DNA of 64,000 nucleotides from Giardia intestinalis. Lineage: Eukaryota. The notes under the pieces were generated by a model. The model was not told where the DNA came from. It saw only the letters and a list, made by a program, of their open reading frames with translations, and searched no databases. Below are positions 1 to 14,399 of this stretch, piece after piece (the stretch's first letter is position 1; every line of letters begins with the position of its first letter). The DNA is taken from assembly GCA_000002435.2 (NCBI GenBank), contig CM018789.1; one strand, given 5' to 3'. The position numbers and the translations under genes are program-made.

Positions 1-592
1 AGTGCCTAACTGTCCTTGCCGGTGGCATTGCACAGCGAGTGCCCTGGAGGCGCCATCATGACTACGCTTTTCTGCTCTTTTGCTTACAGAGGCCATTACT
101 GTCTGTCCGCTCATGACACCATAAACACACAAGGTCAATCCCCCTGGCACTTTACTCAGAGGTGCGCCGGCTCTTTCGGAGAAGCGCTTCTCTGTGTAGC
201 TGTCTAGTGAACAGACCAGACACGGTGGTGCTATCAGCCAAGCCACTGCTGGGCAGAGCACACGGCCTGTATCTGCTCGTCTCGTGCTCTAGCCAGCCAC
301 CCCGCGTGAGCATCTGGAGGCGTGCCTGGACATATGCGTGGTATTCTGCGGTGTGCACGGTCTCGTGTCCGCACAGTAGGCCAGCCAGGGAGCGTGTGCA
401 GGCACGTCATGTGGCACCACGTCCTTTGTGGAATGCTGGAGGACCACACAGGCGAGGGTCTACCATCAAGATACGGACACGTTGCTTCCTGACATGGAAG
501 GTCAATGAGGCTATCCAGATGGCCCAGCCACGGTAGAAGGCTAGCAGATGTGATCGTATTGGCCACCAGCACTGTCACTAATACCAACATGC

Positions 593-3400
593 ATGATTAA
601 TAGATCTAGCAGGGCCGCAATGTTGCTACTAGTTCTTTGCTTTTTGATGAGCGCTCTCGCTGCACAATGCAAGGGGCACCAGCACTCCAACTGCGCAACC
701 GGCTGGTGCAGGGCGGTCCGTGGCGTCGAGGTCTGTATGAGGTGCAAAGCGGGCCACGTGCTGATCGACGGAGTGTGCGCTGATAACTCTGTTGTCTACG
801 GCGCGGGGTCCGCCTGCCAGATTCTAAACTGCAAGCAGTGTAACGCGGACAACACGCAGTGCGAGCAGTGCGAGGACGGATACACGCCGAGCGCCGGGAA
901 TACCCAGTGCAACGAGGACGCCGCGTCCGCCTGCCAGATTCTAAACTGCAAGCAGTGTAACGCGGACAACACGCAGTGCGAGCAGTGCGAGGACGGATAC
1001 ACGCCGAGCGCCGGGAATACCCAGTGCAACGAGGACGCCGCGTCCGCCTGCCAGATTCTAAACTGCAAGCAGTGTAACGCGGACAACACGCAGTGCGAGC
1101 AGTGCGAGGACGGATACACGCCGAGCGCCGGGAATACCCAGTGCAACGAGGACGCCGCGTCCGCCTGCCAGATTCTAAACTGCAAGCAGTGTAACGCGGA
1201 CAACACGCAGTGCGAGCAGTGCGAGGACGGATACACGCCGAGCGCCGGGAATACCCAGTGCAACGAGGACGCCGCGTCCGCCTGCCAGATTCTAAACTGC
1301 AAGCAGTGTAACGCGGACAACACGCAGTGCGAGCAGTGCGAGGACGGATACACGCCGAGCGCCGGGAATACCCAGTGCAACGAGGACGCCGCGTCCGCCT
1401 GCCAGATTCTAAACTGCAAGCAGTGTAACGCGGACAACACGCAGTGCGAGCAGTGCGAGGACGGATACACGCCGAGCGCCGGGAATACCCAGTGCAACGA
1501 GGACGCCGCGTCCGCCTGCCAGATTCTAAACTGCAAGCAGTGTAACGCGGACAACACGCAGTGCGAGCAGTGCGAGGACGGATACACGCCGAGCGCCGGG
1601 AATACCCAGTGCAACGAGGACGCCGCGTCCGCCTGCCAGATTCTAAACTGCAAGCAGTGTAACGCGGACAACACGCAGTGCGAGCAGTGCGAGGACGGAT
1701 ACACGCCGAGCGCCGGGAATACCCAGTGCAACGAGGACGCCGCGTCCGCCTGCCAGATTCTAAACTGCAAGCAGTGTAACGCGGACAACACGCAGTGCGA
1801 GCAGTGCGAGGACGGATACACGCCGAGCGCCGGGAATACCCAGTGCAACGAGGACGCCGCGTCCGCCTGCCAGATTCTAAACTGCAAGCAGTGTAACGCG
1901 GACAACACGCAGTGCGAGCAGTGCGAGGACGGATACACGCCGAGCGCCGGGAATACCCAGTGCAACGAGGACGCCGCGTCCGCCTGCCAGATTCTAAACT
2001 GCAAGCAGTGTAACGCGGACAACACGCAGTGCGAGCAGTGCGAGGACGGATACACGCCGAGCGCCGGGAATACCCAGTGCAACGAGGACGCCGCGTCCGC
2101 CTGCCAGATTCTAAACTGCAAGCAGTGTAACGCGGACAACACGCAGTGCGAGCAGTGCGAGGACGGATACACGCCGAGCGCCGGGAATACCCAGTGCAAC
2201 GAGGACGCCGCGTCCGCCTGCCAGATTCTAAACTGCAAGCAGTGTAACGCGGACAACACGCAGTGCGAGCAGTGCGAGGACGGATACACGCCGAGCGCCG
2301 GGAATACCCAGTGCAACGAGGACGCCGCGTCCGCCTGCCAGATTCTAAACTGCAAGCAGTGTAACGCGGACAACACGCAGTGCGAGCAGTGCGAGGACGG
2401 ATACACGCCGAGCGCCGGGAATACCCAGTGCAACGAGAACCCAGAAGCGCGGTGCAATACTCCCAACTGTAAGACCTGTGACAACCCCAAAACAGGCAAT
2501 GAAATCTGCACTAAATGTAATGATGGCGACTACCTCACCCCTACAAACCAGTGCGCACATGACTGCACAGCCATCAGCGGATACTACGGAGATACTGACA
2601 AGAAGTGTAAGCCATGCAGCCCTGAGTGCGCTGAGTGCGTTGGGCCAGCCAACAATCAGTGTAGTGCTTGTCCTGCAGGCAAGGCATTAACATATGGAGG
2701 TGGTGATCCTGCCCAAGGGGGCACCTGCGGGGATGCGTGTACGGCGGACAAGAACGGATGTAAGGTCTGTGGGGCAAGGATCGGCGGGACAGACTACTGC
2801 TCCCAGTGCTCAGTGGGTACTCAGGCTCCTCTGAACGGGGTCTGTACGGCCAACGCGCGTGCTCAGTTCTGCACACAAGTTACCAGTGGATCCTGCACGT
2901 CTTGTAGTGGGGGCTACTTCCTCAAGAATGGTGGCTGTTACCAGGCAGATAGACAGCCAGGCAAACAGATATGTACACTAGCTGATAGCAATGGTGGATG
3001 TCAGGCGTGTGCCAATGGTCTTCCTCCTAGTTCTTCTGACGTATGCCCCTCGTGTCATTTCACCTGCAAGACATGCTCGACCGCAGACATTGCAAATACT
3101 TGTACAACGTGTGCAACTGGGTACTACATGGTCGGATCAGGGCCAAACACATGTATTTCGTGTGAAAGTGACAGTGGAAGTGTCAAGGGAGTTGCTGGCT
3201 GCATGAGCTGCGCTCCTCCATCTAGCAATACTGGCTCCGTTCTCTGCTACCTCATGAACGGTGACAGTGCCGGCGGGAGCACGAATAAGAGCGGCCTTAG
3301 CACAGGTGCCATCGCTGGCATCTCTGTGGCTGTCATCGTCGTCGTCGGGGGACTCGTCGGCTTCCTCTGCTGGTGGTTCATCTGCAGGGGCAAAGCGTAG
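593..3400 (+). CDS. Variant-specific surface protein (VSP), 935 aa. It has an N-terminal hydrophobic signal region, 14 tandem 39-aa CXXC-rich repeats, a cysteine-rich body, a C-terminal TM helix and a CRGKA tail. The alternative ATG at 620 (MLLLVLCF...) is possibly the true start.
   Basis: ATG at 593 and stop at 3398-3400. Many CXXC motifs (CKQC, CEQC, CKTC). The C-terminus ...GAIAGISVAVIVVVGGLVGFLCWWFICRGKA matches the Giardia VSP hallmark. The VSP 3' element follows the stop. Confidence 0.9.
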   Translation: MINRSSRAAMLLLVLCFLMSALAAQCKGHQHSNCATGWCRAVRGVEVCMRCKAGHVLIDGVCADNSVVYGAGSACQILNCKQCNADNTQCEQCEDGYTPSAGNTQCNEDAASACQILNCKQCNADNTQCEQCEDGYTPSAGNTQCNEDAASACQILNCKQCNADNTQCEQCEDGYTPSAGNTQCNEDAASACQILNCKQCNADNTQCEQCEDGYTPSAGNTQCNEDAASACQILNCKQCNADNTQCEQCEDGYTPSAGNTQCNEDAASACQILNCKQCNADNTQCEQCEDGYTPSAGNTQCNEDAASACQILNCKQCNADNTQCEQCEDGYTPSAGNTQCNEDAASACQILNCKQCNADNTQCEQCEDGYTPSAGNTQCNEDAASACQILNCKQCNADNTQCEQCEDGYTPSAGNTQCNEDAASACQILNCKQCNADNTQCEQCEDGYTPSAGNTQCNEDAASACQILNCKQCNADNTQCEQCEDGYTPSAGNTQCNEDAASACQILNCKQCNADNTQCEQCEDGYTPSAGNTQCNEDAASACQILNCKQCNADNTQCEQCEDGYTPSAGNTQCNEDAASACQILNCKQCNADNTQCEQCEDGYTPSAGNTQCNENPEARCNTPNCKTCDNPKTGNEICTKCNDGDYLTPTNQCAHDCTAISGYYGDTDKKCKPCSPECAECVGPANNQCSACPAGKALTYGGGDPAQGGTCGDACTADKNGCKVCGARIGGTDYCSQCSVGTQAPLNGVCTANARAQFCTQVTSGSCTSCSGGYFLKNGGCYQADRQPGKQICTLADSNGGCQACANGLPPSSSDVCPSCHFTCKTCSTADIANTCTTCATGYYMVGSGPNTCISCESDSGSVKGVAGCMSCAPPSSNTGSVLCYLMNGDSAGGSTNKSGLSTGAIAGISVAVIVVVGGLVGFLCWWFICRGKA
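811..2448 (+). repeat. 14 head-to-tail copies of a 117-bp (39-aa) coding tandem repeat, ASACQILNCKQCNADNTQCEQCEDGYTPSAGNTQCNEDA. Copies appear nucleotide-identical, with the last unit ending NENPEA.
   Basis: Period 117 is seen directly (for example gcctgccagattctaaactgcaagcagtg at 811, 928, 1045 ...). The length difference between the two VSP ORFs, 935-428 = 507 aa, equals 13 x 39. Confidence 0.95.
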
Positions 3401-3404
3401 ATGT

Positions 3405-3419
3405 ACTTAGATAGTAAAC
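3405..3419 (+). promoter_or_regulatory. VSP-type extended polyadenylation element ACTTAGATAGTAAAC (contains AGTRAAY), 5 nt after the VSP stop.
   Basis: Exact match to the conserved VSP 3' motif ACTYAGRTAGTRAAY. The mirror copy lies at 6074..6088 on the minus strand. Confidence 0.7.
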
Positions 3420-6073
3420 GCGTCACTGTATAAAGCATATTATACTGTGATGGGGCCCTGCCTGTGGGAGCGTCCAGAAATCCCACGAGTAAGTCTCGCC
3501 CACGTCTTGGCCAATCTGAGAGCGAGAACTGGTTGTAGACAGCAAGCAGGGACTCCTCTTTATTAGTGTATCTAAAACTTGGCACCTTCTCCGGTCGCTC
3601 TGTGGGTGTGTGCTCAGTCTGGGTGTGCACGTCGGCCGTTTCGGGGTTCAGGCCTTCTCGCAGACTCTCTGGTCCACCAGTGGCGCCTCTCCTTGGTCTT
3701 CCTTCACGGTGAGTGAAGCCCGGGCCGCTGTCTTTTTTAGATGCCCCCGTCTGTCAGGGGCTGCCATCGGGCTCTCCGCTGGCTGGGCCCCTCGGTGTCC
3801 GTCCGGCTGTGGTTCTGGGTCAGCGCTTCCACAGTCGCGGTCACTTGGGTCTCAGTGGGCCGGCTGGTGGGTGGGGCGGGGGTATGGGCGGTGAGGACTG
3901 GTGGGACCGGGTGGGGGCTGAGATTGGTGTCCGTATGTGCTCCTGGGTTCGGTGGGCCATTGCGGCGGTGGGTGATCCCCTCTCTGTTTGCCAAGGTGGT
4001 TGTGTCTGATCCCCAGCCTTCGTTGCACTCCCGAGACACAGGCACCGACGATCGTGTCGTGTCCCCTGACTGAGCGCCTCCCTTGGCCCCTGCATGCCTC
4101 GGGCAGTACTGCTGCTCTGGTTGACTGGTACATGAGGGATGAGGCAGGCCATCGCAGCCTCTCCTGCTACTCGCTGATGCTCTGTGCGGGTCTGCTGGGC
4201 CCCTGGCATGCCCTGTCCAGTGCCTCGACGTAGTTCACCTCGGCCAGCAGGGGTGTGGATGAGCCGGTGGATGGGATGGGTTCTCTCAGGCCTCTAGTGT
4301 GATGGCCCAGAAGACTGGCACGGTGGGGCACTGGTGGCTGCACTGTCCCCGTGGTCAGCTGTGCTGCTCCTGGTGGGTCCTTGTCATGGAGCGCTGTGTG
4401 TTGTTCATAGGCAGAGGTGAGCCTCCTTGGTTTCAAGATGCTCTACCATGCAGAGAGGAGCACGCTGAGGGTCACCCATACCTCACATCTGCTGTGCCCG
4501 TTCGGGAGTTCCCGGTGTGGTCCACCAGGACCTTGACACCTCTCGTGGCTCTGATGACCCCTCGAGGAGAGCCGGGGTGTCCTATGCCAGGGGAGGCGTG
4601 CACCCTCCTGCATGAGCTGGGACCCACTGCACTGCCCTCAAGGAGGTCTGCTATGAGAGGCAGTGGGATGATTGACGGCCCCAGAGTGCGGTGGAGGGTG
4701 CTCGTGGTCATCTCTTGTGATCGGGCATCACTCTGATGGCCAGCTCTGTGCCTGTGTGGTGCTCAGAGGCCACCTGTCTGCCTCATCGCCTGCTGGACAG
4801 CCGGGTCTCTTGTGGTGTCCGAAGGCCTCCTCACTCCTCTGGCTGCTGCCCCCTCGGGTCATCAATGAAGACAGTCGAGGCCAGCGGAGTCTTCGGTGAG
4901 TCTGGTGCCTGCCTGGGTGTCATGGGGGCTGGCAGCTGTCAGGGCTCTGCCACTGCTCACCTGCCTGGAGTGTGCCTCCCTTGGACCTACTGTGCTGCGT
5001 GAGTCCTCTGGCTTCCTATCAGGCCCTGACTGTGAGGGTGACCCCACCTGGTCCTCTGATGCCCCTGTGGATGAGCATAGCAATGTGTCTGATTGAGGAT
5101 CTCTGGTGCCCGTGTCTGTTGCTGCCTCTCGGGTGCTCGGGTAGTTGCCTGGCACTCTCGTATGGGGGCACAGTCAGCGTGTCCCGAGCAGACTCCAGTC
5201 CTCTCTGGGTCCACACAGTCTGTTCGTGTGTGGATGATCCTCCTGCACTCAGGTCCATCTGTGCACACTATCACTCAGCCTCGAGAGCAGGCCAGTGCAG
5301 TCGCCAGGGTTGCTGTCAGAGGGAGTCGTCTGCCACTACATCGCTCGAGCAGACTCTACAGATCAGGCTGGCTGCTGTGCACCCTCATGGCAGGGCTGCC
5401 TGACTCCCCTTGGTCATCCTCTCTGTCCCGGTGTGCACGGCTCCTGAGGGTTGTCTGGGTGGAGGCACTCACAGACCACGAGCACACAGAGGGGTGAGTC
5501 ATAGATGGACAGCCATCAGTCACCACAGCTGCGATCACCCCAGTCTATCGAGGGACCAGGGGCACATACAGACACCCACCACCCGGTCCCACCAGTCCTC
5601 ACCGCCCATACCCCCGCCCCACCCACCAGCCGGCCCACTGAGACCCAAGTGACCGCGACTGTGGAAGCGCTGACCCAGAACCACAGCCGGACGGACACCG
5701 AGGGGCCCAGCCAGCGGAGAGCCCGATGGCAGCCCCTGACAGACGGGGGCATCTAAAAAAGACAGCGGCCCGGGCTTCACTCACCGTGAAGGAAGACCAA
5801 GGAGAGGCGCCACTGGTGGACCAGAGAGTCTGCGAGAAGGCCTGAACCCCGAAACGGCCGACGTGCACACCCAGACTGAGCACACACCCACAGAGCGACC
5901 GGAGAAGGTGCCAAGTTTTAGATACACTAATAAAGAGGAGTCCCTGCTTGCTGTCTACAACCAGTTCTCGCTCTCAGATTGGCCAAGACGTGGGCGAGAC
6001 TTACTCGTGGGATTTCTGGACGCTCCCACAGGCAGGGCCCCATCACAGTATAATATGCTTTATACAGTGACGC

Positions 6074-6088
6074 GTTTACTATCTAAGT
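6074..6088 (-). promoter_or_regulatory. VSP-type polyadenylation element (mirror copy) for the right-arm VSP.
   Basis: Plus strand reads gtttactatctaagt, the reverse complement of ACTTAGATAGTAAAC, immediately 3' of the minus-strand stop at 6093. Confidence 0.7.
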
Positions 6089-6092
6089 ACAT

Positions 6093-7379
6093 CTACGCTT
6101 TGCCCCTGCAGATGAACCACCAGCAGAGGAAGCCGACGAGTCCCCCGACGACGACGATGACAGCCACAGAGATGCCAGCGATGGCACCTGTGCTAAGGCC
6201 GCTCTTATTCGTGCTCCCGCCGGCACTGTCACCGTTCATGAGGTAGCAGAGAACGGAGCCAGTATTGCTAGATGGAGGAGCGCAGCTCATGCAGCCAGCA
6301 ACTCCCTTGACACTTCCACTGTCACTTTCACACGAAATACATGTGTTTGGCCCTGATCCGACCATGTAGTACCCAGTTGCACACGTTGTACAAGTATTTG
6401 CAATGTCTGCGGTCGAGCATGTCTTGCAGGTGAAATGACACGAGGGGCATACGTCAGAAGAACTAGGAGGAAGACCATTGGCACACGCCTGACATCCACC
6501 ATTGCTATCAGCTAGTGTACATATCTGTTTGCCTGGCTGTCTATCTGCCTGGTAACAGCCACCATTCTTGAGGAAGTAGCCCCCACTACAAGACGTGCAG
6601 GATCCACTGGTAACTTGTGTGCAGAACTGAGCACGCGCGTTGGCCGTACAGACCCCGTTCAGAGGAGCCTGAGTACCCACTGAGCACTGGGAGCAGTAGT
6701 CTGTCCCGCCGATCCTTGCCCCACAGACCTTACATCCGTTCTTGTCCGCCGTACACGCATCCCCGCAGGTGCCCCCTTGGGCAGGATCACCACCTCCATA
6801 TGTTAATGCCTTGCCTGCAGGACAAGCACTACACTGATTGTTGGCTGGCCCAACGCACTCAGCGCACTCAGGGCTGCATGGCTTACACTTCTTGTCAGTA
6901 TCTCCGTAGTATCCGCTGATGGCTGTGCAGTCATGTGCGCACTGGTTTGTAGGGGTGAGGTAGTCGCCATCATTACATTTAGTGCAGATTTCATTGCCTG
7001 TTTTGGGGTTGTCACAGGTCTTACAGTTGGGAGTATTGCACCGCGCTTCTGGGTTCTCGTTGCACTGGGTATTCCCGGCGCTCGGCGTGTATCCGTCCTC
7101 GCACTGCTCGCACTGCGTGTTGTCCGCGTTACACTGCTTGCAGTTTAGAATCTGGCAGGCGGACCCCGCGCCGTAGACAACAGAGTTATCAGCGCACACT
7201 CCGTCGATCAGCACGTGGCCCGCTTTGCACCTCATACAGACCTCGACGCCACGGACCGCCCTGCACCAGCCGGTTGCGCAGTTGGAGTGCTGGTGCCCCT
7301 TGCATTGTGCAGCGAGAGCGCTCATCAAAAAGCAAAGAACTAGTAGCAACATTGCGGCCCTGCTAGATCTATTAATCAT
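6093..7379 (-). CDS. Variant-specific surface protein (VSP), 428 aa. It has the same N- and C-termini as the 593..3400 VSP but only one 39-aa repeat unit.
   Basis: The ORF-track protein starts MINRSSRAAMLLLVLCFLMSALAAQCKG and ends ...WWFICRGKA, identical to the left VSP apart from 13 missing repeat units. Confidence 0.9.
   Translation of the reverse strand: MINRSSRAAMLLLVLCFLMSALAAQCKGHQHSNCATGWCRAVRGVEVCMRCKAGHVLIDGVCADNSVVYGAGSACQILNCKQCNADNTQCEQCEDGYTPSAGNTQCNENPEARCNTPNCKTCDNPKTGNEICTKCNDGDYLTPTNQCAHDCTAISGYYGDTDKKCKPCSPECAECVGPANNQCSACPAGKALTYGGGDPAQGGTCGDACTADKNGCKVCGARIGGTDYCSQCSVGTQAPLNGVCTANARAQFCTQVTSGSCTSCSGGYFLKNGGCYQADRQPGKQICTLADSNGGCQACANGLPPSSSDVCPSCHFTCKTCSTADIANTCTTCATGYYMVGSGPNTCISCESDSGSVKGVAGCMSCAPPSSNTGSVLCYLMNGDSAGGSTNKSGLSTGAIAGISVAVIVVVGGLVGFLCWWFICRGKA
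7045..7161 (-). repeat. Single 117-bp unit in the right-arm VSP, matching the 14-copy array at 811..2448.
   Basis: Coordinate mapping from the left arm. The right VSP protein contains one ...SACQILNCKQCNADNTQCEQCEDGYTPSAGNTQCNENPEA. Confidence 0.8.
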
Positions 7380-10300
7380 GCATGTTGGTATTAGTGACAG
7401 TGCTGGTGGCCAATACGATCACATCTGCTAGCCTTCTACCGTGGCTGGGCCATCTGGATAGCCTCATTGACCTTCCATGTCAGGAAGCAACGTGTCCGTA
7501 TCTTGATGGTAGACCCTCGCCTGTGTGGTCCTCCAGCATTCCACAAAGGACGTGGTGCCACATGACGTGCCTGCACACGCTCCCTGGCTGGCCTACTGTG
7601 CGGACACGAGACCGTGCACACCGCAGAATACCACGCATATGTCCAGGCACGCCTCCAGATGCTCACGCGGGGTGGCTGGCTAGAGCACGAGACGAGCAGA
7701 TACAGGCCGTGTGCTCTGCCCAGCAGTGGCTTGGCTGATAGCACCACCGTGTCTGGTCTGTTCACTAGACAGCTACACAGAGAAGCGCTTCTCCGAAAGA
7801 GCCGGCGCACCTCTGAGTAAAGTGCCAGGGGGATTGACCTTGTGTGTTTATGGTGTCATGAGCGGACAGACAGTAATGGCCTCTGTAAGCAAAAGAGCAG
7901 AAAAGCGTAGTCATGATGGCGCCTCCAGGGCACTCGCTGTGCAATGCCACCGGCAAGGACAGTTAGGCACTGCCAATAGGCCAGTCTGCGTCAGTAAACA
8001 CGCAGTGTTCGCAGGCCGAACCATGTACCTTTGCAAGCGGGCAGTGTAACCATTTCAACTTTTAATGCTGTTAAGCGATCTGTATAGTCCGCTTCATCTG
8101 GACGCCTCACGTGCCTTCGCCGCAACCACTGCTTCCATCTCGCAAGCCAACCATGCTATTGATGGAATGAGGCAGCAATACATCCGCCGCCCTTAATTCG
8201 CCCAGGCTGCCAATTCCACCCTGCAAGCTGCCCGCCACCTACCGTAGATCGATGTGGATGCATACTGCGGTGTGGTTGGGCCTGGAATAAGCAGATCTCA
8301 ACTGGGAGTCAGTCTCCTACTCTCCGTCGTCTGGCTCTGTCTCTGGTGTGAGCAGGACCATGCAACCACGAAAGACATCAGCTCCCTGCCAGTAGACAAT
8401 ATGCGCTGCAGAATAGGAGAACGTAGTGGGCCCCTAAGCTGCCCCGCTCGAGGAGCCGCTGCTTCTTTAACAGGGTTGCCCGACGACAGCAGGCACCAGT
8501 ATGGCTACCAGGCCCTTCTGGCTCTGACTTGCAGAGCATCCCCAGCACCGCTCCGGTAAGAGCTGTCTTTCCTATTGGCTTCTGCCGTCCGGGCGTCAGT
8601 TATGGCGAGAATTAACCCTTGCCCATTGGTACTGGTCGAACACTCACTACGTGTTGCTCGTCTAGGAAAGATTGATCTTGCCGCTCCACGGGCTATTCGC
8701 CATGCTGGATGACGAACATATGTGCCACTCAGCCCCTAGTCTTTATTGGATGCAAGGCCAGCTATGCAGGGTTACAGGGCCGCCTCGCCATCCTTAAGTT
8801 GAGCTCTTAGAAGTGTCCTACGTTTTACTAGACGCAACCTAGGTCCGTCCAACTCTATGCTTTATACTAATTCTAGATTGGGTTAAGCGTGCCTGGTAGT
8901 GAAGGTATCTACGGTACTTCCACTCACCGTGAGCAGTTCATAGAAGCCCCTGTGGCTCATCGCCTTCAATACTTGTGCGTTCACTCATCGATACCTCCGC
9001 GTTATTCAGCATAACTATAGTATGTCACCTGTATGCGTCAAGCTACAGCTCCTAAGTGTCTTACAGCAAATACCTTGCGTCTGAGCACCTGGTTAATTCA
9101 GCATCCACGCGTATAAAACATGATAGAAGTCTGTGGAGTATGGTGGCTTCCATTTTCTCTTTCCCCTTTTCTGACTCTGGTTGACTTTATCTTTGCTGGG
9201 TCAAATATGCACTATCTACGCGCACCTTAATGTTAACGGCACTCGTATGTCCTGCCAGGTCATATAAATCTTTATCAGCCGTTGCATGATAATTGTCTGG
9301 CATAATATGCAATCTGGTATTGAATGAAGAATAAAGCGCCCACTTTTGTAATGAGGACTTGTTGTGCTTATGCTGGGAAATAATAGATGGTCAAGTATAA
9401 CCGTACAAGGCTGTAGGACACTCTGCTGGACGATTTTATGAGTATAGGAAGCTGCCTGCTTTAACCTACAGCTCATTTCATTCACGTCATAAGCATTTTG
9501 CCACACAAGATCACTTTAAAAGCATTCTGTGATTACCAGACATCTTTTGATACCAGTCCCGGGTCAACAAAGCAAGCTGCTTATTGTAATTTGGAAAATT
9601 GGGTAACGGCTCCATGGATTCTTGGGTATCATGCCCACTAATCAGCAACTACCAAATATCCTACTTCGCATCTACTTTTTGCAATCTGTTTTTTGTAAGA
9701 CGGCGACTGAAGCGCTAATGGCTCAGTTTCCTAGACCATCCATATCTCTACATAAAGGTTGCCATCGGAAGTCTCCATAAATAGAACATGCAAACTCGAC
9801 AGACAAGCTTCTAGTATCAGCCTTCTCACAATGTATCTATGACAACGGGTCTGTCTTTAGTCAATCGATACTTATCCAGAGAACAGTAGCGCGGCAGTAG
9901 TATAGATGATTATTACGTAGCTTATGCAGGGGCTTGTTGTCAGCAACAAGAGATAAAACAACCTTAGCCTTACAAGATTAAAAGTTCCACATTAGCTAAA
10001 AACGATAGGCTCAGTGACCATTTTTCATGCCACTCACCAAACTTAAGCCGTTTACAGATTTGACGTTTAGTTGCTCTTACAATCTTTACTCTGCTGGTTG
10101 TCTGTTTGTTTGGATCTCTAGTTAAGGTTGGGCCAGTCTGCAATCTTACTCGTGCTCAATTGCGTGACACGCCATAACCATAATATCATTTATGATCTAG
10201 CCATCTATTGCAGGCGCTACTTGCTACATCAGAAACAATGACCGTGGATCCATTACCTTCCCTTTGGTGGTCAAAGTATCATAAGGGACAGACTCTTCTC

Positions 10301-11899
10301 ATGTGCTGGTTGGGCCGCTTAATCTTGTCAGTACAAACTTCTCTCACGATTCAAGCTAGTTGTGATAGTGATGGCATAATTTCCCTAGCAATCAGTTACT
10401 CAGTTCAATCCTTGCCTCAATATTATAACGAGTTGGACGCCTTGAGTCACAACGAGTCGGTGAAATTAGTATCTCAAAGCTTGCACGGATGTAAAGCATC
10501 GCGTTGGACATCACTGGATAAAGGCATGTACCAGTTGAGAATTGGTGCAACTTCTGGCTAACTCTTGAAGGCCCACGCTCCCTAACATGAACGTGGACAA
10601 GGCCAATCCCAGGCTCTGCGCCATATGGGTTTGTCACGAAGTCCTTGCCAGTAGGCACACAAAGCGACTGTTCTTGTCGCTTTTCTCGTGCTGTCGGTCT
10701 TGATTTGTCCTCTATGCGGCGTGGTGCAGTAGACAACCTCACCCCCTATGACCTTCCGTTGCGCAGCTCGTAACTGCTGTACACAATGCGTCTGCAAAGA
10801 GCCGACATGACAACGGCCCTATTTGGATGCTGCCCATGCAGAACCAGGCTTACGACTGCGTCTTGCAGCTATTAGCCGTGTATTCCATTTACTGCTGATT
10901 GCCTGGTCTATTATCACATATCTATGTATTGGCAAAGCAAGGCCCGTCCTTTTCTCGAAGGCAATAAAGCAATCTATTTGATCTACACCTTGCGCCCTTA
11001 AGCATATATCGGAAGACTACAATCAGCTCGTTCTGACTAGACTACATCATGGAAGGCATGAAAGGTCAGTTGGGTTTGTAACATACAGTGACGTAAAGTC
11101 ATTCGCGTCTCTTCAAAGCACCAAAGCAGCCCGCAAAAGTGTTCATTCAGATGGCTTTCTATCTCCATGTGACGATGCTCATGTGGATTTTCAGTACATT
11201 TACAGTGGTATTTCTGTGCGGCTCACATGTCTTATGAAAGTCTATGTTACCGATAGCTGGATGCAGATCTTCCTATTCTGTAAGATATTCATCGTCGTTC
11301 AACGTGTTCATAGCATGACATATCTGGCGTTTGCCTAGTTTGCCAATGCAAGTGCTTTCACTCTATGCTTACAAAAAGCACGAAGCCCAAGGGAGGATGG
11401 CCACAACCCCGAGGAGCGTGTATACAGCTGGCGACTTTAAGGGCCTACGTGAAAAGTACTAATATCCGTCCATGATTGCTCTTACAGTACTTTAATAATA
11501 GGCTAATAATAGATTCCCTGATGGCTATGCAGGATGGTATGTACCACCTGCAATGTTGAAAGATGTCCCAGCATGTACAGAAACACGTTGTGTACCCTAG
11601 AATCTACCAGTGATACTGGTGTGTAGAAGCAATTCATATATAAGAAGCGGTGTGCACAGACTCACTAAGAATGAGGAGGATAATTGGCAAGCAAAATAAG
11701 CTCTTACATTATTTCAAGAAGCATGCATTCACGACTTGGAGCTAAGAATGACGTATAAGTTATTTGAAAGCATAACACACTTAGAGGCAGAGCTGCAAAT
11801 CGCCTTTATCATATACAGGCAGTCACGTGGAACCATGCATGAAGATTCATGTTGTGGCACACCTTCACAGCTTCGTGGTTGGCGTCACGCCCAAGACCT

Positions 11900-12424
11900 C
11901 TAATCATCGGTGAGATCAATAGTGCTATTGCTAAGATCAATGACTGGAACCCGCTTCAGAGCCCGTTGGTGCGCAATGTATCTTACCTCTTGGTAGTAGT
12001 TGTGGCAGGCACGGATTGTAAGTCCAGCGGCCTGGTTAATTCGGTGCGCTTGTGCGTGCCAGACGGGCCCGTGATGCACTCGCTCGAACACCTTCAGTCT
12101 GAAAAGGTAGGCGTGGATCATCTCATGCACCAGCACGTCGAGCAGGTCGTGTTGTGAACGATATTGGAGTAGAGGTGCAGATAGGATAATTACAATAGGA
12201 CTATGCTCTTCTGTTCGCGTCCCTCTGTATTTGCATAGACCTGCAGAACGTGTTAGCCTATTGCTCCAATGAACCACAACATCTCTCAGGCAATTGTCGA
12301 AAAAAGCCTCGTTGAAATGCCTAAAGAGCGCGTGCACATCACCAAAAGGCCAGTGTTGTGTTTCTAGTTCCTGAGAGGTAGGTGGTGGGGCAGCAAAAAA
12401 GTCCAGGAGGGGGTTGCTATCCAT
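11900..12424 (-). CDS. Minimal SprT/Spartan-like zinc metalloprotease (DNA-protein crosslink repair protease family), ~174 aa. The track ORF begins at a GTG at 12697; in-frame ATGs at 12583 and 12565 are alternative starts, but the SprT domain begins right after the ATG at 12424.
   Basis: ...FNEAFFDNCL...WSNRLTRSAGLC...LLDVLVHEMIHAYLF...HGPVWHAQAHRIN...TIRACHNYYQEV closely parallels the human SPRTN core (LLHEMIHAYLF, HGPEF, HRIN). The HExxH motif is present. Confidence 0.65.
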   Translation of the reverse strand: MDSNPLLDFFAAPPPTSQELETQHWPFGDVHALFRHFNEAFFDNCLRDVVVHWSNRLTRSAGLCKYRGTRTEEHSPIVIILSAPLLQYRSQHDLLDVLVHEMIHAYLFRLKVFERVHHGPVWHAQAHRINQAAGLTIRACHNYYQEVRYIAHQRALKRVPVIDLSNSTIDLTDD

Positions 12425-12428
12425 TTTT
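12425..12428. promoter_or_regulatory. Four-nucleotide A/T spacer (TTTT within ccaTTTTTatg) between the divergent start codons of the SprT-like (-) and Nei-like (+) genes; presumed shared bidirectional initiator.
   Basis: Minus ATG at 12424..12422 and plus ATG at 12429..12431. Giardia promoters are short A/T-rich initiators abutting the start codon. Confidence 0.4.
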
Positions 12429-13847
12429 ATGCCAGAGCATCCTGAGGTTCGAGCCTTCGCAGAACGCATAACGTTTGAGGCAGAGCACACTCTCTTTACT
12501 AACGTCTCTACTTCGAGGGCGTGTGTGTATAAGGCCCTCCCACCTTTGTTCCTTGATGATTCCATAAAAGTAGCATTTACCATAAGGTGCGAATCTCGAG
12601 GCAAGCAGCTCCGAGTTGACCTGGCTCGGGCAGCTGATCCACCTAGGAATGAGGCAAAGAGTATTTTTGTGCGTCTGAAAAGAAATACATCTGACACCTC
12701 AGAGACACCCTATGATTTGTGCAAAACAACCGCTTTAAGCCGCCCCTGGGAACACTCAGATCACGCTGTGGCGCTTACCATACCAACCAGTATCGTGATT
12801 GGCCTGGGATTAGCAGGCTGTATCAACACCTTCTTAACCCCAGAGGAAGCTTTGAAGTCTAACGCACATCTCTTGTTTGAGGCATCTGATGCTGTGTTAG
12901 CAGTATGCTCGCCACGGCCAGAGACCATGTACTGGCGAGTAGGAGACTTCGACCATGCACGGTCCCCTGATCCTGTGGCACAGTACCTAGACTATGTGTC
13001 CAAGATACTGTCCAAACTGTCACATATTCCTATAGGTCTTGACGGGTCTTTCATTGTGCCACCCAAGTCGATATTTTCACAACCCATATGCCGGCTTCTT
13101 TTGTCTCAGGAATTGTTCAACGGAGTAGGGAATTACCTACGAGCAGAGGCCATGCACCGACTTCTTATTCACCCTTTCACCCCAAGCGTCTATGTGTTTG
13201 AAGAGCTTATCCATTGGGTTCATGACACCGTGCGAGAAACCCCTCGATTCCACAACTTGAGTAACAAGTGGAGAAGTCTTGCCGAAAAGAATGTCTCTAT
13301 TATCGAGACCAAGTGCCCACTCATCCCGATGATCAGAAGGCTATGTGAGGAGGCCTATGCTGTTCTGGATGATCACAGACTCTTTTCGGAGTGGCTTTTA
13401 TGCTATAAGAAAGCAACTAATTGCATTCTTGATTCCGGGGGCAGAGAAGTTTGGTTCTTCGAAAAGCTAGTCGCAAACAAATCCAGTCATGCAAGTGAGC
13501 ACGGCGATAAGAAGAATTCTGCTGAGAAGCCAGATGCATGTACCCTGTCAGAGCTCATACTGTCCTCTGAACCTAGTCTTAAAAAGGTTGCAGTACAGCA
13601 ACTGGCTACGTCAAACGCAGAAAATGTCATTCTTAATAGCACGGAGAATGATGCTGATGTCAGCCAGCTAGACATCTTGGAATACTCTCGCAAAGACCTC
13701 CTTCGACGAGGCACGGTACTCGACAATCTTCCAATTGATTCTAGAAACGAGTCAGCTAGTCGATGGCAGGACAAGATTGTTCGGAAGAGTACTGTCCAAC
13801 AATTACATGACGCTCGAACGTTTCAAGCAAGCCTCCAGTCGAAGTAA
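12429..13847 (+). CDS. Fpg/Nei-family (NEIL-like) DNA glycosylase/AP lyase, 472 aa. True start is the ATG at 12429 (MPEHPEV...); the track start at 12414 is upstream of it.
   Basis: The N-terminus MPEHPEVRAFAERI matches the Fpg/Nei catalytic Pro2-Glu3 signature (MPELPEV, MPEGPEL). The H2TH motif LLSQELFNGVGNYLRAEAMHRLLIHPFTPS matches E. coli Fpg [26 protein letters not shown]. No C-terminal CxxC zinc finger is seen. Confidence 0.65.
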   Translation: MPEHPEVRAFAERITFEAEHTLFTNVSTSRACVYKALPPLFLDDSIKVAFTIRCESRGKQLRVDLARAADPPRNEAKSIFVRLKRNTSDTSETPYDLCKTTALSRPWEHSDHAVALTIPTSIVIGLGLAGCINTFLTPEEALKSNAHLLFEASDAVLAVCSPRPETMYWRVGDFDHARSPDPVAQYLDYVSKILSKLSHIPIGLDGSFIVPPKSIFSQPICRLLLSQELFNGVGNYLRAEAMHRLLIHPFTPSVYVFEELIHWVHDTVRETPRFHNLSNKWRSLAEKNVSIIETKCPLIPMIRRLCEEAYAVLDDHRLFSEWLLCYKKATNCILDSGGREVWFFEKLVANKSSHASEHGDKKNSAEKPDACTLSELILSSEPSLKKVAVQQLATSNAENVILNSTENDADVSQLDILEYSRKDLLRRGTVLDNLPIDSRNESASRWQDKIVRKSTVQQLHDARTFQASLQSK

Positions 13848-13865
13848 AGCAGAGAGTCCGCGGGC

Positions 13866-14399
13866 CTATATCTGCCTGACCATTATCTTATCATCCAAGG
13901 AGTACAGAAGGTGGTCGCTATACAGCTGTACAATGGGAGGCGGCTCTGTTTCAGAGATGGGCATTGTGCTTCTACAATACTGGTCTACAATCTCTAACTG
14001 ATCAGATACCTTCATGATCGTGTAGTGGTTTGCAAGAAAGAGGGCAGAACGGGCGTTGAGTAATCGTGTAAACGGGGGTTGGTGACACAGCTGGCTGTTC
14101 AACTGTTCAACCCTCTGCACCCTCAGCGGCTGCAGGCTGCCTCTCATGGCCAAGAGGTTGAGCCCGTCGGTTCCGACGGTGTAGAGCACTTGCTTGCAGG
14201 TGAGCGCGGAGTCGAAAATGGGATACGAGGGGGCCAGCTGGGCGTGTGTGTGAAGAAGGGCGTTCCTTATCAGATCCCAGACCTTCACAGACCCGTCGAT
14301 GCTGGTGGAAACCAGCGCGCTGTCGGCGACGTGCAGCGACGTCACCGCGTGGCTGTGAGAAAGGGTCGTGGCGGGGTGGGGCGGAAAAGCGTGCACCAT
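13866..14399 (-). CDS. Small ORF (177 aa) with two WD40-like blades (SIDGSVKVWDL...). It may be a fragmentary or decayed WD-repeat gene. The opposite-strand ORF 14079..14495 is Gly/Arg-rich and likely an artefact.
   Basis: ATG at 14399. WD-like GS..WD motifs are present, but the ORF is too short for a full propeller and the upstream context is GC-rich rather than A/T-rich. Confidence 0.25.
   Translation of the reverse strand: MVHAFPPHPATTLSHSHAVTSLHVADSALVSTSIDGSVKVWDLIRNALLHTHAQLAPSYPIFDSALTCKQVLYTVGTDGLNLLAMRGSLQPLRVQRVEQLNSQLCHQPPFTRLLNARSALFLANHYTIMKVSDQLEIVDQYCRSTMPISETEPPPIVQLYSDHLLYSLDDKIMVRQI

What the first reader, a model, noticed from the sequence alone, without database searches (positions are those of the whole stretch)
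1..7971. Sequence-identical ~2.4 kb tail-to-tail inverted duplication of a VSP gene, a built-in template for a giant hairpin/dsRNA
Two VSP genes (593..3400 + and 6093..7379 -) are convergent. They sit inside perfectly inverted arms (1..3914 vs 5579..7971) that include ~590 bp of identical 5' flank and ~514 bp of identical 3' flank, around a 1.66 kb unique spacer. Any transcript reading through the VSP poly-A signal from either side would fold into a >2 kb perfect stem. Convergent transcription of both copies would give the same dsRNA. Giardia VSP antigenic variation has been attributed to RNAi-type (Dicer/Ago/RdRP) and epigenetic silencing of all but one VSP. A hard-wired hairpin locus for a specific VSP would be a natural siRNA source or a cis-silencing device. 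Perfect identity across non-coding flanks also implies very recent duplication or ongoing gene conversion.
Basis: partly seen in the sequence, partly recalled or inferred. Interest (0 to 1): 0.75.

Follow-up and report, generated by a model that had tools for sequence, protein, structure and literature searches.

The report
Known Giardia inverted VSP gene pair
This is a real tail-to-tail duplicate of a Giardia surface-antigen (VSP) gene, but this pair and about 13-20 like it are already catalogued, it is the centre of a roughly 21-kb palindrome kept uniform by gene conversion, and no available evidence shows that it makes silencing RNA.

Summary
Window 1-3914 and 5579-7971 are inverted copies, with 2,393 of 2,393 alignable bases identical, around a unique 1,664-nt spacer. 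Each arm carries a CRGKA-tailed VSP gene with its own initiator and poly(A) signal. Two corrections apply. First, the left copy has 13 extra perfect 117-nt repeats (926 vs 419 aa), so a fold-back would form two stems (about 1.6 kb and 0.8-0.9 kb) around a 1.5-kb bulge, not one stem of more than 2 kb. Second, the arms are cut by the window edge. Annotation order and independent contigs indicate they run outward through duplicated SprT-like and Nei-like genes to a breakpoint at 14375, giving a palindrome of about 20.8 kb.

The organism is Giardia intestinalis WB. The pair matches vsp87.1/87.2 of Adam et al. 2010 (same 514-nt 3' divergence point, same 117-nt repeat), one of the inverted VSP pairs catalogued there and in two later surveys.

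The outer junction is shared with assemblage AII (1.9% diverged), while the WB arms differ by at most 0.04%. That indicates gene conversion rather than recent duplication.

The hairpin/siRNA idea is untested. It needs more than 2.7 kb of read-through. The analogous VSP1267 pair can be the dominant expressed VSP, so such pairs are not hard-wired silencers.

The parts
1..3914 (+). Left arm of the inverted repeat, as far as the window shows it. It runs off the window at position 1 and by inference starts about 6.4 kb further left.
   Evidence: identical to the reverse complement of 5579-7971 once 13 repeat units are removed; duplicated SprT-like and Nei-like genes flank both VSPs in the WB annotation.
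620..3400 (+). Left VSP gene, 926 aa (935 aa from the upstream ATG at 593). It has a signal peptide, 14 repeats of 39 aa, a CXXC-rich ectodomain, a TM segment and a CRGKA tail.
   Evidence: Pfam PF03302 VSP, E=9.4e-101. Initiator CAATGTT at 618-624.
808..2445 (+). Tandem array of 14 units of 117 nt: 13 identical units at 808-2328, and a last unit at 2329-2445 with a variant 3' end.
   Evidence: TRF: period 117, 13.9 copies, 100% matches; unit-by-unit listing.
3405..3419 (+). VSP-type extended poly(A) signal ACTTAGATAGTAAAC, starting 5 nt after the left stop codon.
   Evidence: The next AGTRAAY on the + strand is not until 7993.
3869..3888 (+). Canonical G-quadruplex motif on the sense strand, 469 nt past the stop codon and 26 nt from the inner end of the arm.
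   Evidence: This motif and its mirror copy are the only two G4 motifs in the 64-kb window.
3915..5578 (.). Unique, non-palindromic spacer of 1,664 nt, 60-63% GC. No coding, VSP-remnant, Pfam or Rfam signal was found.
5605..5624 (-). Mirror copy of the G-quadruplex motif.
5579..7971 (-). Right arm, the part that has its partner inside the window.
6074..6088 (-). Extended poly(A) signal of the right VSP.
6093..7352 (-). Right VSP gene, 419 aa (428 aa from the ATG at 7379), with a single 39-aa unit (7048-7164). The 419-aa form equals KAE8301640.1/XP_001707111.2; the 428-aa form equals XP_001707111.1 of the 2007 assembly.
7972..14375 (-). Inferred outer continuation of the right arm. It holds a GC-rich VSP upstream region to about 8960, gene-free lower-GC DNA (mostly 41-44%, one 50% stretch) to about 11900, then the duplicated genes.
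   Evidence: WB-type contigs carrying the intact WD40 gene (left-arm context) equal window 8964-14375 except at 2 positions.
11900..12424 (-). SprT-like gene, copy 2 (KAE8301641.1). Its protein is identical to copy 1 (KAE8301638.1).
12429..13847 (+). Endonuclease VIII-like (Nei-like) gene, copy 2 (KAE8301642.1). Its protein is identical to copy 1 (KAE8301637.1).
13866..14375 (-). Truncated 3' part of a WD40 gene. The intact 295-aa gene, KAE8301636.1, lies beyond the left arm. The outer junction of the palindrome is at 14375|14376.

Best explanation
The finding is the central 8 kb of a palindromic segmental duplication of about 20.8 kb on the 1.49-Mb chromosome of Giardia intestinalis WB (assemblage AI). 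Two convergent copies of one VSP gene, the pair catalogued as vsp87.1/87.2, face each other across a unique 1.66-kb spacer. The arms continue outward through about 4.5 kb of intergenic DNA, a SprT-like gene and a Nei-like DNA glycosylase gene, and end at a breakpoint inside a WD40 gene.

The duplication is old, because its outer junction is shared with assemblage AII. The two arms are kept virtually identical by intrachromosomal arm-to-arm gene conversion. The internal 117-nt repeat array changes length independently, by slippage or unequal exchange. As a result the pair encodes a short (419 aa) and a long (926 aa) isoform of the same antigen.

Each copy is a self-contained VSP gene, with its own PyAATGTT initiator and its own extended poly(A) signal, and I infer that each is subject to the ordinary one-at-a-time VSP control.

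Status of the steps:
- Shown: the structure, the sequence identity, membership of the known pair class, the shared junction, and an arm-to-arm difference about 50-fold below the AI-AII divergence.
- Inferred: gene conversion as the homogenising process, slippage as the source of the repeat-number difference, and the absence of a dedicated RNA-hairpin function.
For: - Structure and identity.
- VSP hallmarks (Pfam VSP, CRGKA, CAATGTT initiator, extended poly(A) signal).
- Organism and gene: the 419-aa protein is 100% identical to WB KAE8301640.1 on a 1,485,438-bp contig, and the 428-aa form equals XP_001707111.1 of the 2007 assembly.
- Known class and this pair: Adam 2010 lists vsp87.1 (GL50803_112647, TTIPa) and 87.2 (TTIPb_TR117). 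The listed length of 623 aa equals 428 + 5x39. The 3' divergence of 514 nt is exactly what I measure (3401-3914). Xu 2020 gives convergent pairs 2,526-2,813 bp apart, and this one is 2,692 bp. Rodriguez-Walker 2022 counts 20 pairs, 13 of them tail-to-tail.
- Larger palindrome: identical SprT-like proteins KAE8301638/641 and identical Nei-like proteins KAE8301637/642 bracket the VSP KAE8301640.
- Left-arm context: WB-type short-read contigs equal window 8964-14375 except at 2 positions, then continue into the intact WD40/PUF/S4 genes as in assemblage E.
- Outer junction: contig L002 spans the window junction at 100% identity.
- Age and homogenisation: AII contigs (DH L015; L016, L017, L019, L020) carry the same junction at 98.1-98.7% identity. 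L017 and L020 (k=31) stop 30 nt and L016 (k=141) 141 nt inside it, about one k-mer length (within one base), the pattern expected at a repeat boundary. AI-AII divergence inside the arm is 120/6,257 = 1.9%, against at most 2/5,412 between the WB arms.
- Conversion between inverted VSP neighbours seen elsewhere: in DH locus L014 a 759-nt 100% inverted tract makes the last ~205 aa of a 672-aa VSP equal its head-to-head neighbour, while the first ~465 aa stay ~99% identical to the WB orthologue.
- Literature: VSP genes are enriched among gene-conversion tracts in assemblage A.
Against: - The left arm beyond the window was not read. Its extent rests on the order of annotation accessions, on identical protein sequences, and on short-read contigs whose strain identity is only inferred from 99.96% identity.
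- No evidence covers the stretch 7972-8963 in the left arm.
- Short-read polishing of a long-read assembly can artificially homogenise duplicated arms, so 'perfect' identity may be slightly overstated.
- The WB-type Logan contigs cross the 14375 boundary without breaking. That is unexpected if both junctions are present in those samples.
- The 926-aa product is absent from the protein collection. Adam 2010 reported 5-6 repeat units and an ORF distance of 2,393 bp rather than 14 units and 2,692 bp, so repeat number and spacer length differ between assemblies.
- No RNA data were available, so a hairpin role cannot be excluded.
Confidence: 0.8

Rival explanations
1. Hairpin-RNA / endo-siRNA locus. 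Transcripts that escape the VSP poly(A) signal run through the spacer into the partner copy. They fold back or pair with sense mRNA, are diced, and silence this VSP or bias its switching.
For: - The sequence potential is real: arms are perfectly complementary.
- After the signal at 3413 there is no further AGTRAAY on the + strand until 7993, so a transcript that escapes would meet no further canonical poly(A) signal before crossing the whole partner gene.
- Giardia has Dicer, Argonaute and RdRP, and an RNAi model for VSP control has been published (as summarised).
- Run-through transcription is offered in the literature as one possible source of antisense poly(A) sites in Giardia.
Against: - It requires more than 2.7 kb of read-through past a conserved extended poly(A) signal. 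A G-quadruplex motif also lies on the sense strand 469 nt downstream and could act as a pause site (the pause role is my inference).
- The convergent VSP1267 pair is the dominant VSP in a clone, at 87.2% of VSP transcripts.
- Only 12-20% of VSPs have more sense than antisense reads; the rest have more antisense or none, so pairing is not needed to explain antisense VSP RNA.
- VSP-derived small RNAs in one survey were mostly sense: 1,633 on plus strands vs 133 on minus strands.
- The arms include SprT-like and Nei-like genes, which a silencing hairpin would have no reason to carry.
- Seven of the identical pairs are head-to-head, where read-through cannot make a hairpin of the coding region.
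Confidence: 0.1
2. A very recent inverted duplication with no ongoing gene conversion. The arms are identical simply because there has been no time to diverge.
For: - Identity is uniform with abrupt boundaries.
- Adam 2010 suggested that the identical pairs may be evolutionarily recent duplications.
Against: - The outer junction at 14375|14376 is present in assemblage AII genomes that differ from WB by 1.9% across the same segment, so the duplication predates that split.
- In Adam 2010, 14 of 19 inverted pairs were identical. Four of the five others paired VSPs from different clades, and no slightly diverged pair was described. Identical VSP genes were found only in inverted arrangement.
- A partial conversion tract is visible in DH.
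Confidence: 0.07
3. Assembly artefact: a fold-back or chimeric long-read artefact, or a collapse or expansion of allelic copies. On this view the two copies are not truly adjacent and inverted.
For: - The repeat sits at the very start of the window.
- Inverted VSP pairs ended contigs in the Sanger assembly and were once questioned as artefacts.
- Repeat number (14 vs 5-6) and ORF distance (2,692 vs 2,393) differ from Adam 2010.
Against: - A non-palindromic 1.66-kb spacer and a 13-unit length difference are not what a fold-back artefact produces.
- The independent Sanger assembly already had the 428-aa copy next to SprT/GINS and a second SprT next to WD40. It scored this pair as tail-to-tail with the same 514-nt divergence point.
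- The outer junction is seen in several independent read sets and in two sub-assemblages.
Confidence: 0.03

Closest known systems
Inverted identical vsp gene pairs of Giardia intestinalis WB (vsp1267 of Mowatt 1991; Adam et al. 2010, BMC Genomics 11:424; Xu et al. 2020, Sci Data 7:38; Rodriguez-Walker et al. 2022 preprint)
   Same: Two copies of one VSP lie tail-to-tail. The ORFs are 2,692 bp apart, within the published 2,526-2,813 bp. The 3' flanks are identical for 514 nt and then diverge abruptly, which is the value published for vsp87. One copy is flagged TR117. The spacer is non-coding.
   Different: The ORFs differ in length (14 vs 1 repeat unit), so the strict-identity lists of 2020 and 2022 omit this pair, and the 2022 preprint states that no duplicated VSP has repeats. 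The 5' identity does not end within a few hundred bases. It appears to run for about 7 kb and to include two non-VSP genes.
Large palindromes with arm-to-arm gene conversion on mammalian sex chromosomes (e.g. human Y palindrome P6; PMC3723533, PMC8981503)
   Same: Inverted arms surround a unique spacer. Arm-to-arm identity (at least 99.96%) is far higher than the divergence from the orthologous palindrome in a sister lineage (1.9%). The arms carry genes.
   Different: The scale is about 10-kb arms rather than 10 kb to 1.5 Mb. The organism is a tetraploid, binucleate protist. The conversion events themselves, and any GC bias, were not measured here.
Endogenous hairpin-RNA (hpRNA) / inverted-repeat endo-siRNA loci of animals, plants and trypanosomes (recalled from my own knowledge, not searched here)
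   Same: There is a long, perfectly complementary inverted repeat with a loop that could be transcribed as one RNA.
   Different: In those loci a single promoter drives one transcript through both arms, and small RNAs have been shown. Here each arm is a complete gene with its own promoter and poly(A) signal pointing at the other, and no transcript or small RNA has been demonstrated.
RNAi / miRNA models of VSP control in Giardia (Prucca et al. 2008; Saraiya & Wang 2008; both as summarised in PMC2817412 and PMC3610916)
   Same: They concern the same gene family. In those models antisense VSP RNA and Dicer products are proposed regulators.
   Different: Those models derive dsRNA from RdRP acting on many VSP mRNAs, or use snoRNA-derived miRNAs. 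None invokes inverted gene pairs. None of the papers I opened mentions hairpin or dsRNA from the pairs: the terms 'hairpin' and 'double-stranded' are absent from Adam 2010, and 'dsRNA' is absent from the 2022 preprint.

Membership tests
[quoted passage not shown] | Match to the Pfam VSP family PF03302 | tested here: met
   E=9.4e-101, 338 bits (cut-off 31.4). All of the best 120 homologues listed carry PF03302, and all that carry a name are Giardia cysteine-rich proteins, nearly all VSPs.
[quoted passage not shown] | C-terminal transmembrane segment followed by the invariant CRGKA tail; N-terminal signal peptide; many CXXC motifs | tested here: met
   the C-terminus reads ...[35 protein letters not shown] in both copies, the N-terminus MLLLVLCFLMSALA is hydrophobic, and CXXC motifs run throughout. 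No signal-peptide predictor was run.
[quoted passage not shown] | Initiator PyAATGTT at the start codon, and extended poly(A) signal ACTYAGRTAGTRAAY just after the stop | tested here: met
   CAATGTT at 618 (+) and 7348-7354 (-); ACTTAGATAGTAAAC at 3405 (+) and 6074-6088 (-). These are the only such sites in the window.
Inverted identical VSP pair (Adam 2010 / Xu 2020) | Two VSP ORFs in inverted orientation, separated by 2-4 kb of non-coding DNA | tested here: met
   the ORFs are tail-to-tail and 2,692 bp apart, with no VSP remnant or Pfam domain in between.
Inverted identical VSP pair (Adam 2010 / Xu 2020) | Nucleotide identity of the two ORFs at all alignable positions | tested here: met
   0 mismatches. 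Adam 2010 files this pair as TTIPa/TTIPb_TR117.
Inverted identical VSP pair (Adam 2010 / Xu 2020) | Equal ORF length (the strict criterion used in the 2020 and 2022 lists) | tested here: not met
   926/935 aa vs 419/428 aa (14 vs 1 repeat unit). The pair is absent from Xu 2020 Table 2.
Inverted identical VSP pair (Adam 2010 / Xu 2020) | Flanks identical up to an abrupt divergence point 139-729 nt from the coding region | tested here: inconclusive
   3' side: abrupt at 514 nt, equal to the published value for vsp87. 5' side: still identical at the window edge (at least 592 nt) and by inference for about 7 kb. Adam 2010 gives no 5' value for tail-to-tail pairs.
Palindrome maintained by arm-to-arm gene conversion | Arm-to-arm identity much higher than divergence from the orthologous structure in a sister lineage that shares the duplication junction | tested here: met
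   at most 2/5,412 (and 0/2,393) differences between WB arms, against 120/6,257 between WB and AII. The same junction sequence is present in AII contigs.
Palindrome maintained by arm-to-arm gene conversion | Direct evidence of conversion tracts | tested here: inconclusive
   Not observable at this locus, because the arms are identical. A 759-nt tract between inverted VSP neighbours is seen in DH locus L014, but that is a different locus in a short-read assembly.
Hairpin-RNA / endo-siRNA locus | Long inverted repeat able to form an intramolecular duplex | tested here: met
   The duplex would be interrupted by a 1,521-nt one-sided bulge.
Hairpin-RNA / endo-siRNA locus | A single transcript spanning arm, loop and arm | not testable with these tools
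   No RNA-seq mapping is available here. Each arm ends in its own poly(A) signal.
Hairpin-RNA / endo-siRNA locus | Dicer-sized (25-26 nt in Giardia) small RNAs of both polarities from the arms, dependent on Dicer/Argonaute, that repress a target | not testable with these tools
   No small-RNA data could be mapped. The literature I searched reports nothing specific to the pairs.

The most novel reading that the evidence does not exclude
A low level of read-through from either VSP copy crosses the unique 1.66-kb spacer and yields a fold-back RNA. Giardia Dicer cuts this RNA into 25-26-nt siRNAs. On this reading, convergent palindromic VSP pairs, this one included, are built-in dsRNA sources that tune silencing or switching of their own VSP and of related VSPs. 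The palindrome scaffold, which is conserved between AI and AII while its central VSP cassette differs, would then be a dedicated site for this.
Probability: 0.1. Interest if true: 0.7.

Novelty: already known. Interest (0 to 1): 0.2.

Why it matters
As found, it matters little. Inverted identical VSP pairs have been described since 1991 and catalogued genome-wide in 2010, 2020 and 2022, and this pair is in the 2010 list.

Two details go beyond what those papers state and may help people working on Giardia antigenic variation.

1. The identical region here is not a VSP with a few hundred bases of flank. It is a palindrome of about 21 kb with two housekeeping-type genes per arm. Its junction predates the AI/AII split, yet its arms are still identical. 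This gives a clean case of concerted evolution, and it argues that identical VSP pairs are maintained rather than merely young.

2. The two copies differ by 13 repeat units, so reads across the repeat junctions can tell which copy is transcribed. Published RNA-seq could not make that distinction for strictly identical pairs.

If the hairpin idea were shown to be true, it would give the disputed RNAi model of VSP control a concrete genomic trigger.

Tried and rejected
- Exact-protein look-ups for the 428-aa and 419-aa VSPs, another WB VSP, a spacer ORF and a 5'-flank ORF found nothing. The WB chromosome-scale assembly is not in the position index, so the left arm beyond the window and the other WB pairs could not be fetched. 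I therefore could not test whether spacers of different pairs are homologous.
- The closest DH (P0002, L001) and P15 (P0007, L003) VSP homologues are paralogues at non-syntenic loci. No orthologous VSP was recovered in another assemblage.
- The P15 contig with the Nei-like gene starts only 1.1 kb upstream of that gene, so it says nothing about a VSP there.
- A JGI metagenome scan for a 31-nt sequence just inside the spacer next to the left arm boundary (3926-3956) found nothing.
- Rfam on 1-12000 gave no family.
- Pfam on the six longest spacer ORFs gave nothing above threshold, only a sub-threshold WCCH motif that I read as chance. tblastn of the VSP against the intergenic and outer regions gave nothing below E=0.3. 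So there is no VSP pseudogene or reverse-transcriptase relic between these two copies, unlike some published pairs.
- The bacterial-type promoter/terminator scan found no sites, and it does not apply to a eukaryote anyway.
- The spacer is not a decayed palindrome. Only a 21-nt near-match sits next to the boundary (score 32 vs a shuffle maximum of 27).
- I first read the loss of synteny at 14375 as a possible misassembly. I rejected that after finding the junction in independent WB-like and AII read sets, and after finding the duplicated gene annotations.
Full report

Yes. The repeat finder reports inverted arms 2323-3920/5573-7170 (1,598 nt, 100%) and 1-961/7011-7971, plus a 117-nt direct repeat family in the left arm. 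Tandem Repeats Finder gives one array, 808-2437, period 117, 13.9 copies, 100% matches.

A base-by-base comparison shows that 13 units are identical and the 14th has a variant 3' end. When 13 units (1,521 nt) are removed from the left arm, window 1..3914 equals the reverse complement of 5579..7971 at all 2,393 positions. Divergence begins abruptly at 3915/5578. The four mismatches listed at collapsed positions 917-924 come only from the phase in which I cut the array.

The spacer 3915-5578 is 1,664 nt. It has no other copy in the window. It is not a decayed palindrome: only a 21-nt near-match abuts the boundary, scoring 32 against a shuffle maximum of 27.

The ORFs are 593..3400 (+, 935 aa) and 6093..7379 (-, 428 aa). 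They are identical except for 14 vs 1 copies of a 39-aa unit, and both end in ...[12 protein letters not shown].

**2. Corrections to the description**

- The arms differ in length by 1,521 nt. A fold-back RNA or DNA would therefore have two perfect helices, of about 1,586 bp and about 807-924 bp, around a large one-sided bulge. It would not have one stem of more than 2 kb.
- The VSP initiator CAATGTT lies at 618-624 and at its mirror 7348-7354. The real start is therefore probably the second ATG (620/7352), giving 926 and 419 aa. The 419-aa form is exactly the annotated WB protein.
- Convergent transcription that stops at each gene's own poly(A) signal gives two identical sense mRNAs, not complementary ones. 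dsRNA requires read-through.

**3. What the genes are and where the window comes from**

The long ORF matches Pfam VSP (PF03302, E=9.4e-101). All of the best 120 database relatives listed carry that domain. Every one that carries a name is a Giardia cysteine-rich protein, nearly all of them VSPs. The best hit is 100% identical and comes from G. intestinalis WB clone C6, on a contig of 1,485,438 bp. Its cluster also holds the 428-aa form, XP_001707111.1, from the 2007 Sanger assembly.

Each copy has the VSP-type extended poly(A) signal ACTTAGATAGTAAAC starting 5 nt after its stop codon. These are the only two such sites in the 64-kb window, and there are no other CRGKA ORFs in the window.

**4. 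It is a known kind, and this pair is already listed**

Adam et al. 2010 (PMC2996952) describe 14 identical inverted vsp pairs in WB, 10 tail-to-tail and 4 head-to-head. The ORFs are 2-4 kb apart, and the flanks are nearly identical up to an abrupt divergence point.

Their supplementary table lists vsp87.1 (GL50803_112647, 'TTIPa', 623 aa) and vsp87.2 ('TTIPb_TR117', 117-nt repeat, 5 copies). The length fits, because 623 = 428 + 5x39. Their Table 5 gives a 3' divergence of 514 nt for pair 87, which is exactly the length of 3401-3914.

Xu et al. 2020 (PMC7000408) list 12 convergent and 7 divergent identical pairs in the PacBio assembly. The convergent ones are 2,526-2,813 bp apart, and this pair is 2,692 bp apart. 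It is not in their table, evidently because the two ORFs differ in size.

Rodriguez-Walker et al. 2022 (bioRxiv 10.1101/2022.03.07.483299) count 20 pairs, 13 of them tail-to-tail, and state that no duplicated VSP has repeats. This pair is an exception that their strict-identity criterion missed.

Two numbers disagree with Adam 2010. Their ORF distance is 2,393 bp against my 2,692 bp, and their repeat number is 5-6 against my 14. Adam et al. themselves warn that repeat arrays may be condensed by assembly. I could not resolve the distance discrepancy.

**5. The inverted repeat is much larger than the finding**

The Nei-like protein encoded at 12429-13847 carries two WB accessions, KAE8301637.1 and KAE8301642.1. 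The SprT-like protein at 11900-12424 likewise carries KAE8301638.1 and KAE8301641.1. The intact 295-aa WD40 protein is KAE8301636.1, and GINS and a processing peptidase are KAE8301644.1 and KAE8301645.1.

With the right VSP as KAE8301640.1, the annotated order is:

WD40 - Nei - SprT - [left VSP] - right VSP - SprT - Nei - ... - GINS.

This is a mirror image around the spacer.

Short-read contigs from WB-like samples (L004-L012) equal window 8964-14375 except at two positions (8981 and 14371). They then continue into the rest of the WD40 gene, a PUF protein and ribosomal protein S4, which is the same order as in assemblage E (L013). The window instead continues into an Rrp15-like gene and GINS.

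The right arm therefore ends at 14375|14376, inside the WD40 gene, leaving a stub ORF of 177 aa. An independent contig (L002) spans this junction at 100% identity.

The right arm is then 5579-14375 (8,797 nt). The left arm should start about 6.4 kb before the window, and the whole palindrome is about 20.8 kb. Xu et al. mention multi-gene duplications up to 20 kbp.

The 2007 annotation also had two SprT loci, one next to WD40 and one next to GINS and the 428-aa VSP. Both arms are therefore seen with Sanger data too. Not shown: the left arm's sequence itself, and whether 7972-8963 is duplicated.

**6. Recent duplication or gene conversion?**

Contigs from assemblage AII carry the same junction sequence (...GGGTCGTGACGGG|GTGGGGCGGAAAA...). 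These are the DH assembly (L015), three read sets (L016, L017, L020) and a metagenome scaffold (L019). All encode the DH-type GINS protein and are 98.1-98.7% identical to the window.

The k=31 contigs L017 and L020 stop 30 nt inside the junction. The k=141 MEGAHIT contig L016 stops 141 nt inside it. That is about one k-mer length, within one base, and is the pattern expected where unique sequence enters a repeat. The duplication therefore predates the AI/AII split.

Within the duplicated segment, WB and AII differ at 120 of 6,257 aligned positions (1.9%): 2.6% in intergenic DNA, 0.8% in the SprT/Nei coding region, and 1.3% in the WD40 stub. The two WB arms differ at no more than 2 of 5,412 positions, and at 0 of 2,393 in the part visible in the window. 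A roughly 50-fold deficit of arm-to-arm divergence is the signature of concerted evolution by arm-to-arm gene conversion, as in sex-chromosome palindromes (PMC3723533, PMC8981503).

Three further points fit this.
- Adam 2010 found identical vsp genes only in inverted arrangement. Fourteen of 19 inverted pairs were identical. Four of the five others paired VSPs from different clades, and no slightly diverged pair was described.
- A 2025 population study finds VSPs enriched among gene-conversion tracts in assemblage A (PMC12669663).
- In DH locus L014, two head-to-head VSPs of 419 and 672 aa share a 759-nt, 100% identical inverted tract (618 nt of 3' coding sequence plus 141 nt of flank). The 672-aa protein is ~99% identical to its WB orthologue over residues 1-~465, but only about 70% identical over the last ~205 residues, where it equals its neighbour. 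This is a visible conversion tract between inverted VSP neighbours. The 141-nt flank equals the 3' divergence that Adam 2010 gives for the WB pair (vsp168).

Caveats: short-read polishing can homogenise duplicated arms in an assembly, and the DH assembly is short-read based.

**7. The hairpin / siRNA interpretation**

For:
- The complementarity is perfect.
- After the signal at 3413 the + strand has no other AGTRAAY until 7993, so an escaped transcript would cross the partner gene.
- Run-through transcription is offered in the literature as one possible source of antisense poly(A) sites in Giardia.
- RNAi components have been implicated in VSP control.

Against:
- It needs at least 2.7 kb of read-through past a conserved signal.
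- The only canonical G-quadruplex motifs in the whole window lie on the sense strand 469 nt downstream of each stop (3869-3888 and its mirror 5605-5624). They could act as pause sites, but that is my inference.
- Seven identical pairs are head-to-head, where read-through gives no coding hairpin.
- The arms carry SprT and Nei genes.
- Only 12-20% of VSPs have more sense than antisense transcripts; the rest have more antisense or none, whether paired or not.
- VSP-derived small RNAs in one survey were mostly sense: 1,633 on plus strands vs 133 on minus strands.
- The convergent VSP1267 pair is displayed on more than 90% of cells of a clone and accounts for 87.2% of its VSP transcripts. Another pair dominated a single-cell transcriptome.

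A convergent identical pair is therefore not a hard-wired silencer. None of the papers I opened proposes hairpin RNA from these pairs. The idea is unpublished as far as this library shows, but also unsupported. I put it at about 0.1.

**8. What else is in the region**

- The spacer and 3' flanks have no Rfam family, no Pfam domain above threshold, no VSP remnant and no reverse-transcriptase relic.
- GC is 53-63% across 1-8500. It then falls to mostly 41-44% in the gene-free stretch 9000-11900, apart from one 50% stretch at 10,500-11,000.
- The AII scaffold L019 follows the window from 15965 inward to 8118 and then loses all similarity. The central VSP-bearing part of the palindrome therefore seems to differ between AI and AII, while the outer scaffold is conserved. 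I could not follow this up because the look-ups were exhausted.

**9. Verdict**

It is an ordinary, already catalogued member of the Giardia inverted VSP pair class (vsp87.1/87.2). It is embedded in an old palindrome of about 21 kb that is homogenised by gene conversion. The proposed RNA function is untested, and precedent argues against it as a constitutive silencer.

- Interest: 0.2.
- Novelty: already known.
- What goes beyond the cited papers: the extent of the palindrome, its age relative to the AI/AII split, and the fact that the two copies can be told apart by repeat number.

Noticed in passing
window 7972-14375, and beyond the left edge of the window: The inverted duplication extends well outside the finding. 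SprT-like (11900-12424) and Nei-like (12429-13847) genes each exist in two identical annotated copies that bracket the VSP pair. The arm ends at 14375|14376 inside a WD40 gene, leaving a stub ORF of 177 aa at 13866-14399 (its first ~24 nt lie past the junction). The whole palindrome is about 20.8 kb.
   Followed up: yes
window 3869-3888 (+) and 5605-5624 (-): The only two canonical G-quadruplex motifs in the 64-kb window sit 26 nt inside the inner end of each arm, on the sense strand 469 nt downstream of each VSP stop codon. They could be a transcription pause or backstop, or the fork-stalling site at which the inverted duplication arose. Because they are two copies of one sequence, this counts as a single occurrence.
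   Followed up: partly
L019:7847-8033 vs window about 8118 inward: An assemblage AII metagenome scaffold is colinear with the window from 15965 to 8118 (98.1% identity) and then loses all similarity. The central VSP-bearing, GC-rich core of the palindrome may hold a different cassette in AII than in AI.
   Followed up: partly
L014:7139-7897 and 11402-12160 (DH isolate, AHGT01000075.1): Two head-to-head VSPs of different length (419 and 672 aa) share a 759-nt, 100% identical inverted tract covering their 3' ends plus 141 nt of flank. The 672-aa protein is a mosaic: ~99% identical to its WB orthologue up to residue ~465, and identical to its neighbour after that. This is a visible gene-conversion tract.
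   Followed up: yes
window 808-2445 vs Adam 2010 Table 5 and Additional file 1: Repeat number (14 and 1 here; 5-6 in the 2010 table) and ORF-to-ORF distance (2,692 here; 2,393 published) disagree between assemblies. By coincidence, 2,393 is also the length of the perfectly identical arm here. This is unexplained. It could be assembly condensation, allelic variation among the four genome copies, or a table error.
   Followed up: no
window 620-3400 (+): The exact 926-aa product of the left copy is not in the 15-billion-protein collection, while the 419-aa right copy and all five non-VSP neighbouring genes checked are. No long relative with 100% identity appeared in the homologue search either. 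The 14-repeat copy may be unannotated, annotated differently, or called a pseudogene in the reference.
   Followed up: partly
window 8941-8981: All WB-like short-read contigs that reach this far leftward (L004-L009) end at 8941 or 8964, just where GC rises towards the VSP island; L010-L012 start further right, at 10033 and 12046. The six that reach it carry C where the window has T at 8981. This could be a repeat boundary shared with other VSP loci, or a true difference between the two arms.
   Followed up: no
window 9000-11900: About 3 kb of lower-GC DNA (mostly 41-44%, one 50% stretch) with no convincing ORF lies between the VSP island and the SprT-like gene. This is unusually gene-poor for Giardia. 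It is also the most diverged part between AI and AII (2.6%).
   Followed up: no
literature: The 2022 preprint calls the VSP1267 pair (112208/d112208) and the 115797 pair 'head to head'. Xu 2020 Table 2 marks both as convergent, and Adam 2010 and Mowatt 1991 describe VSP1267 as tail-to-tail. The preprint also says that no duplicated VSP has repeats, and this pair contradicts that.
   Followed up: no
PMC5192507 figure legend: VSP-87.1 (GL50803_112647) appears in the list of VSPs in a sequence-alignment figure of a paper on the snoRNA-derived miR2; I did not read what the alignment shows. If it marks miR2 target sites, this gene would be a candidate for small-RNA control that does not depend on the inverted arrangement.
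   Followed up: no
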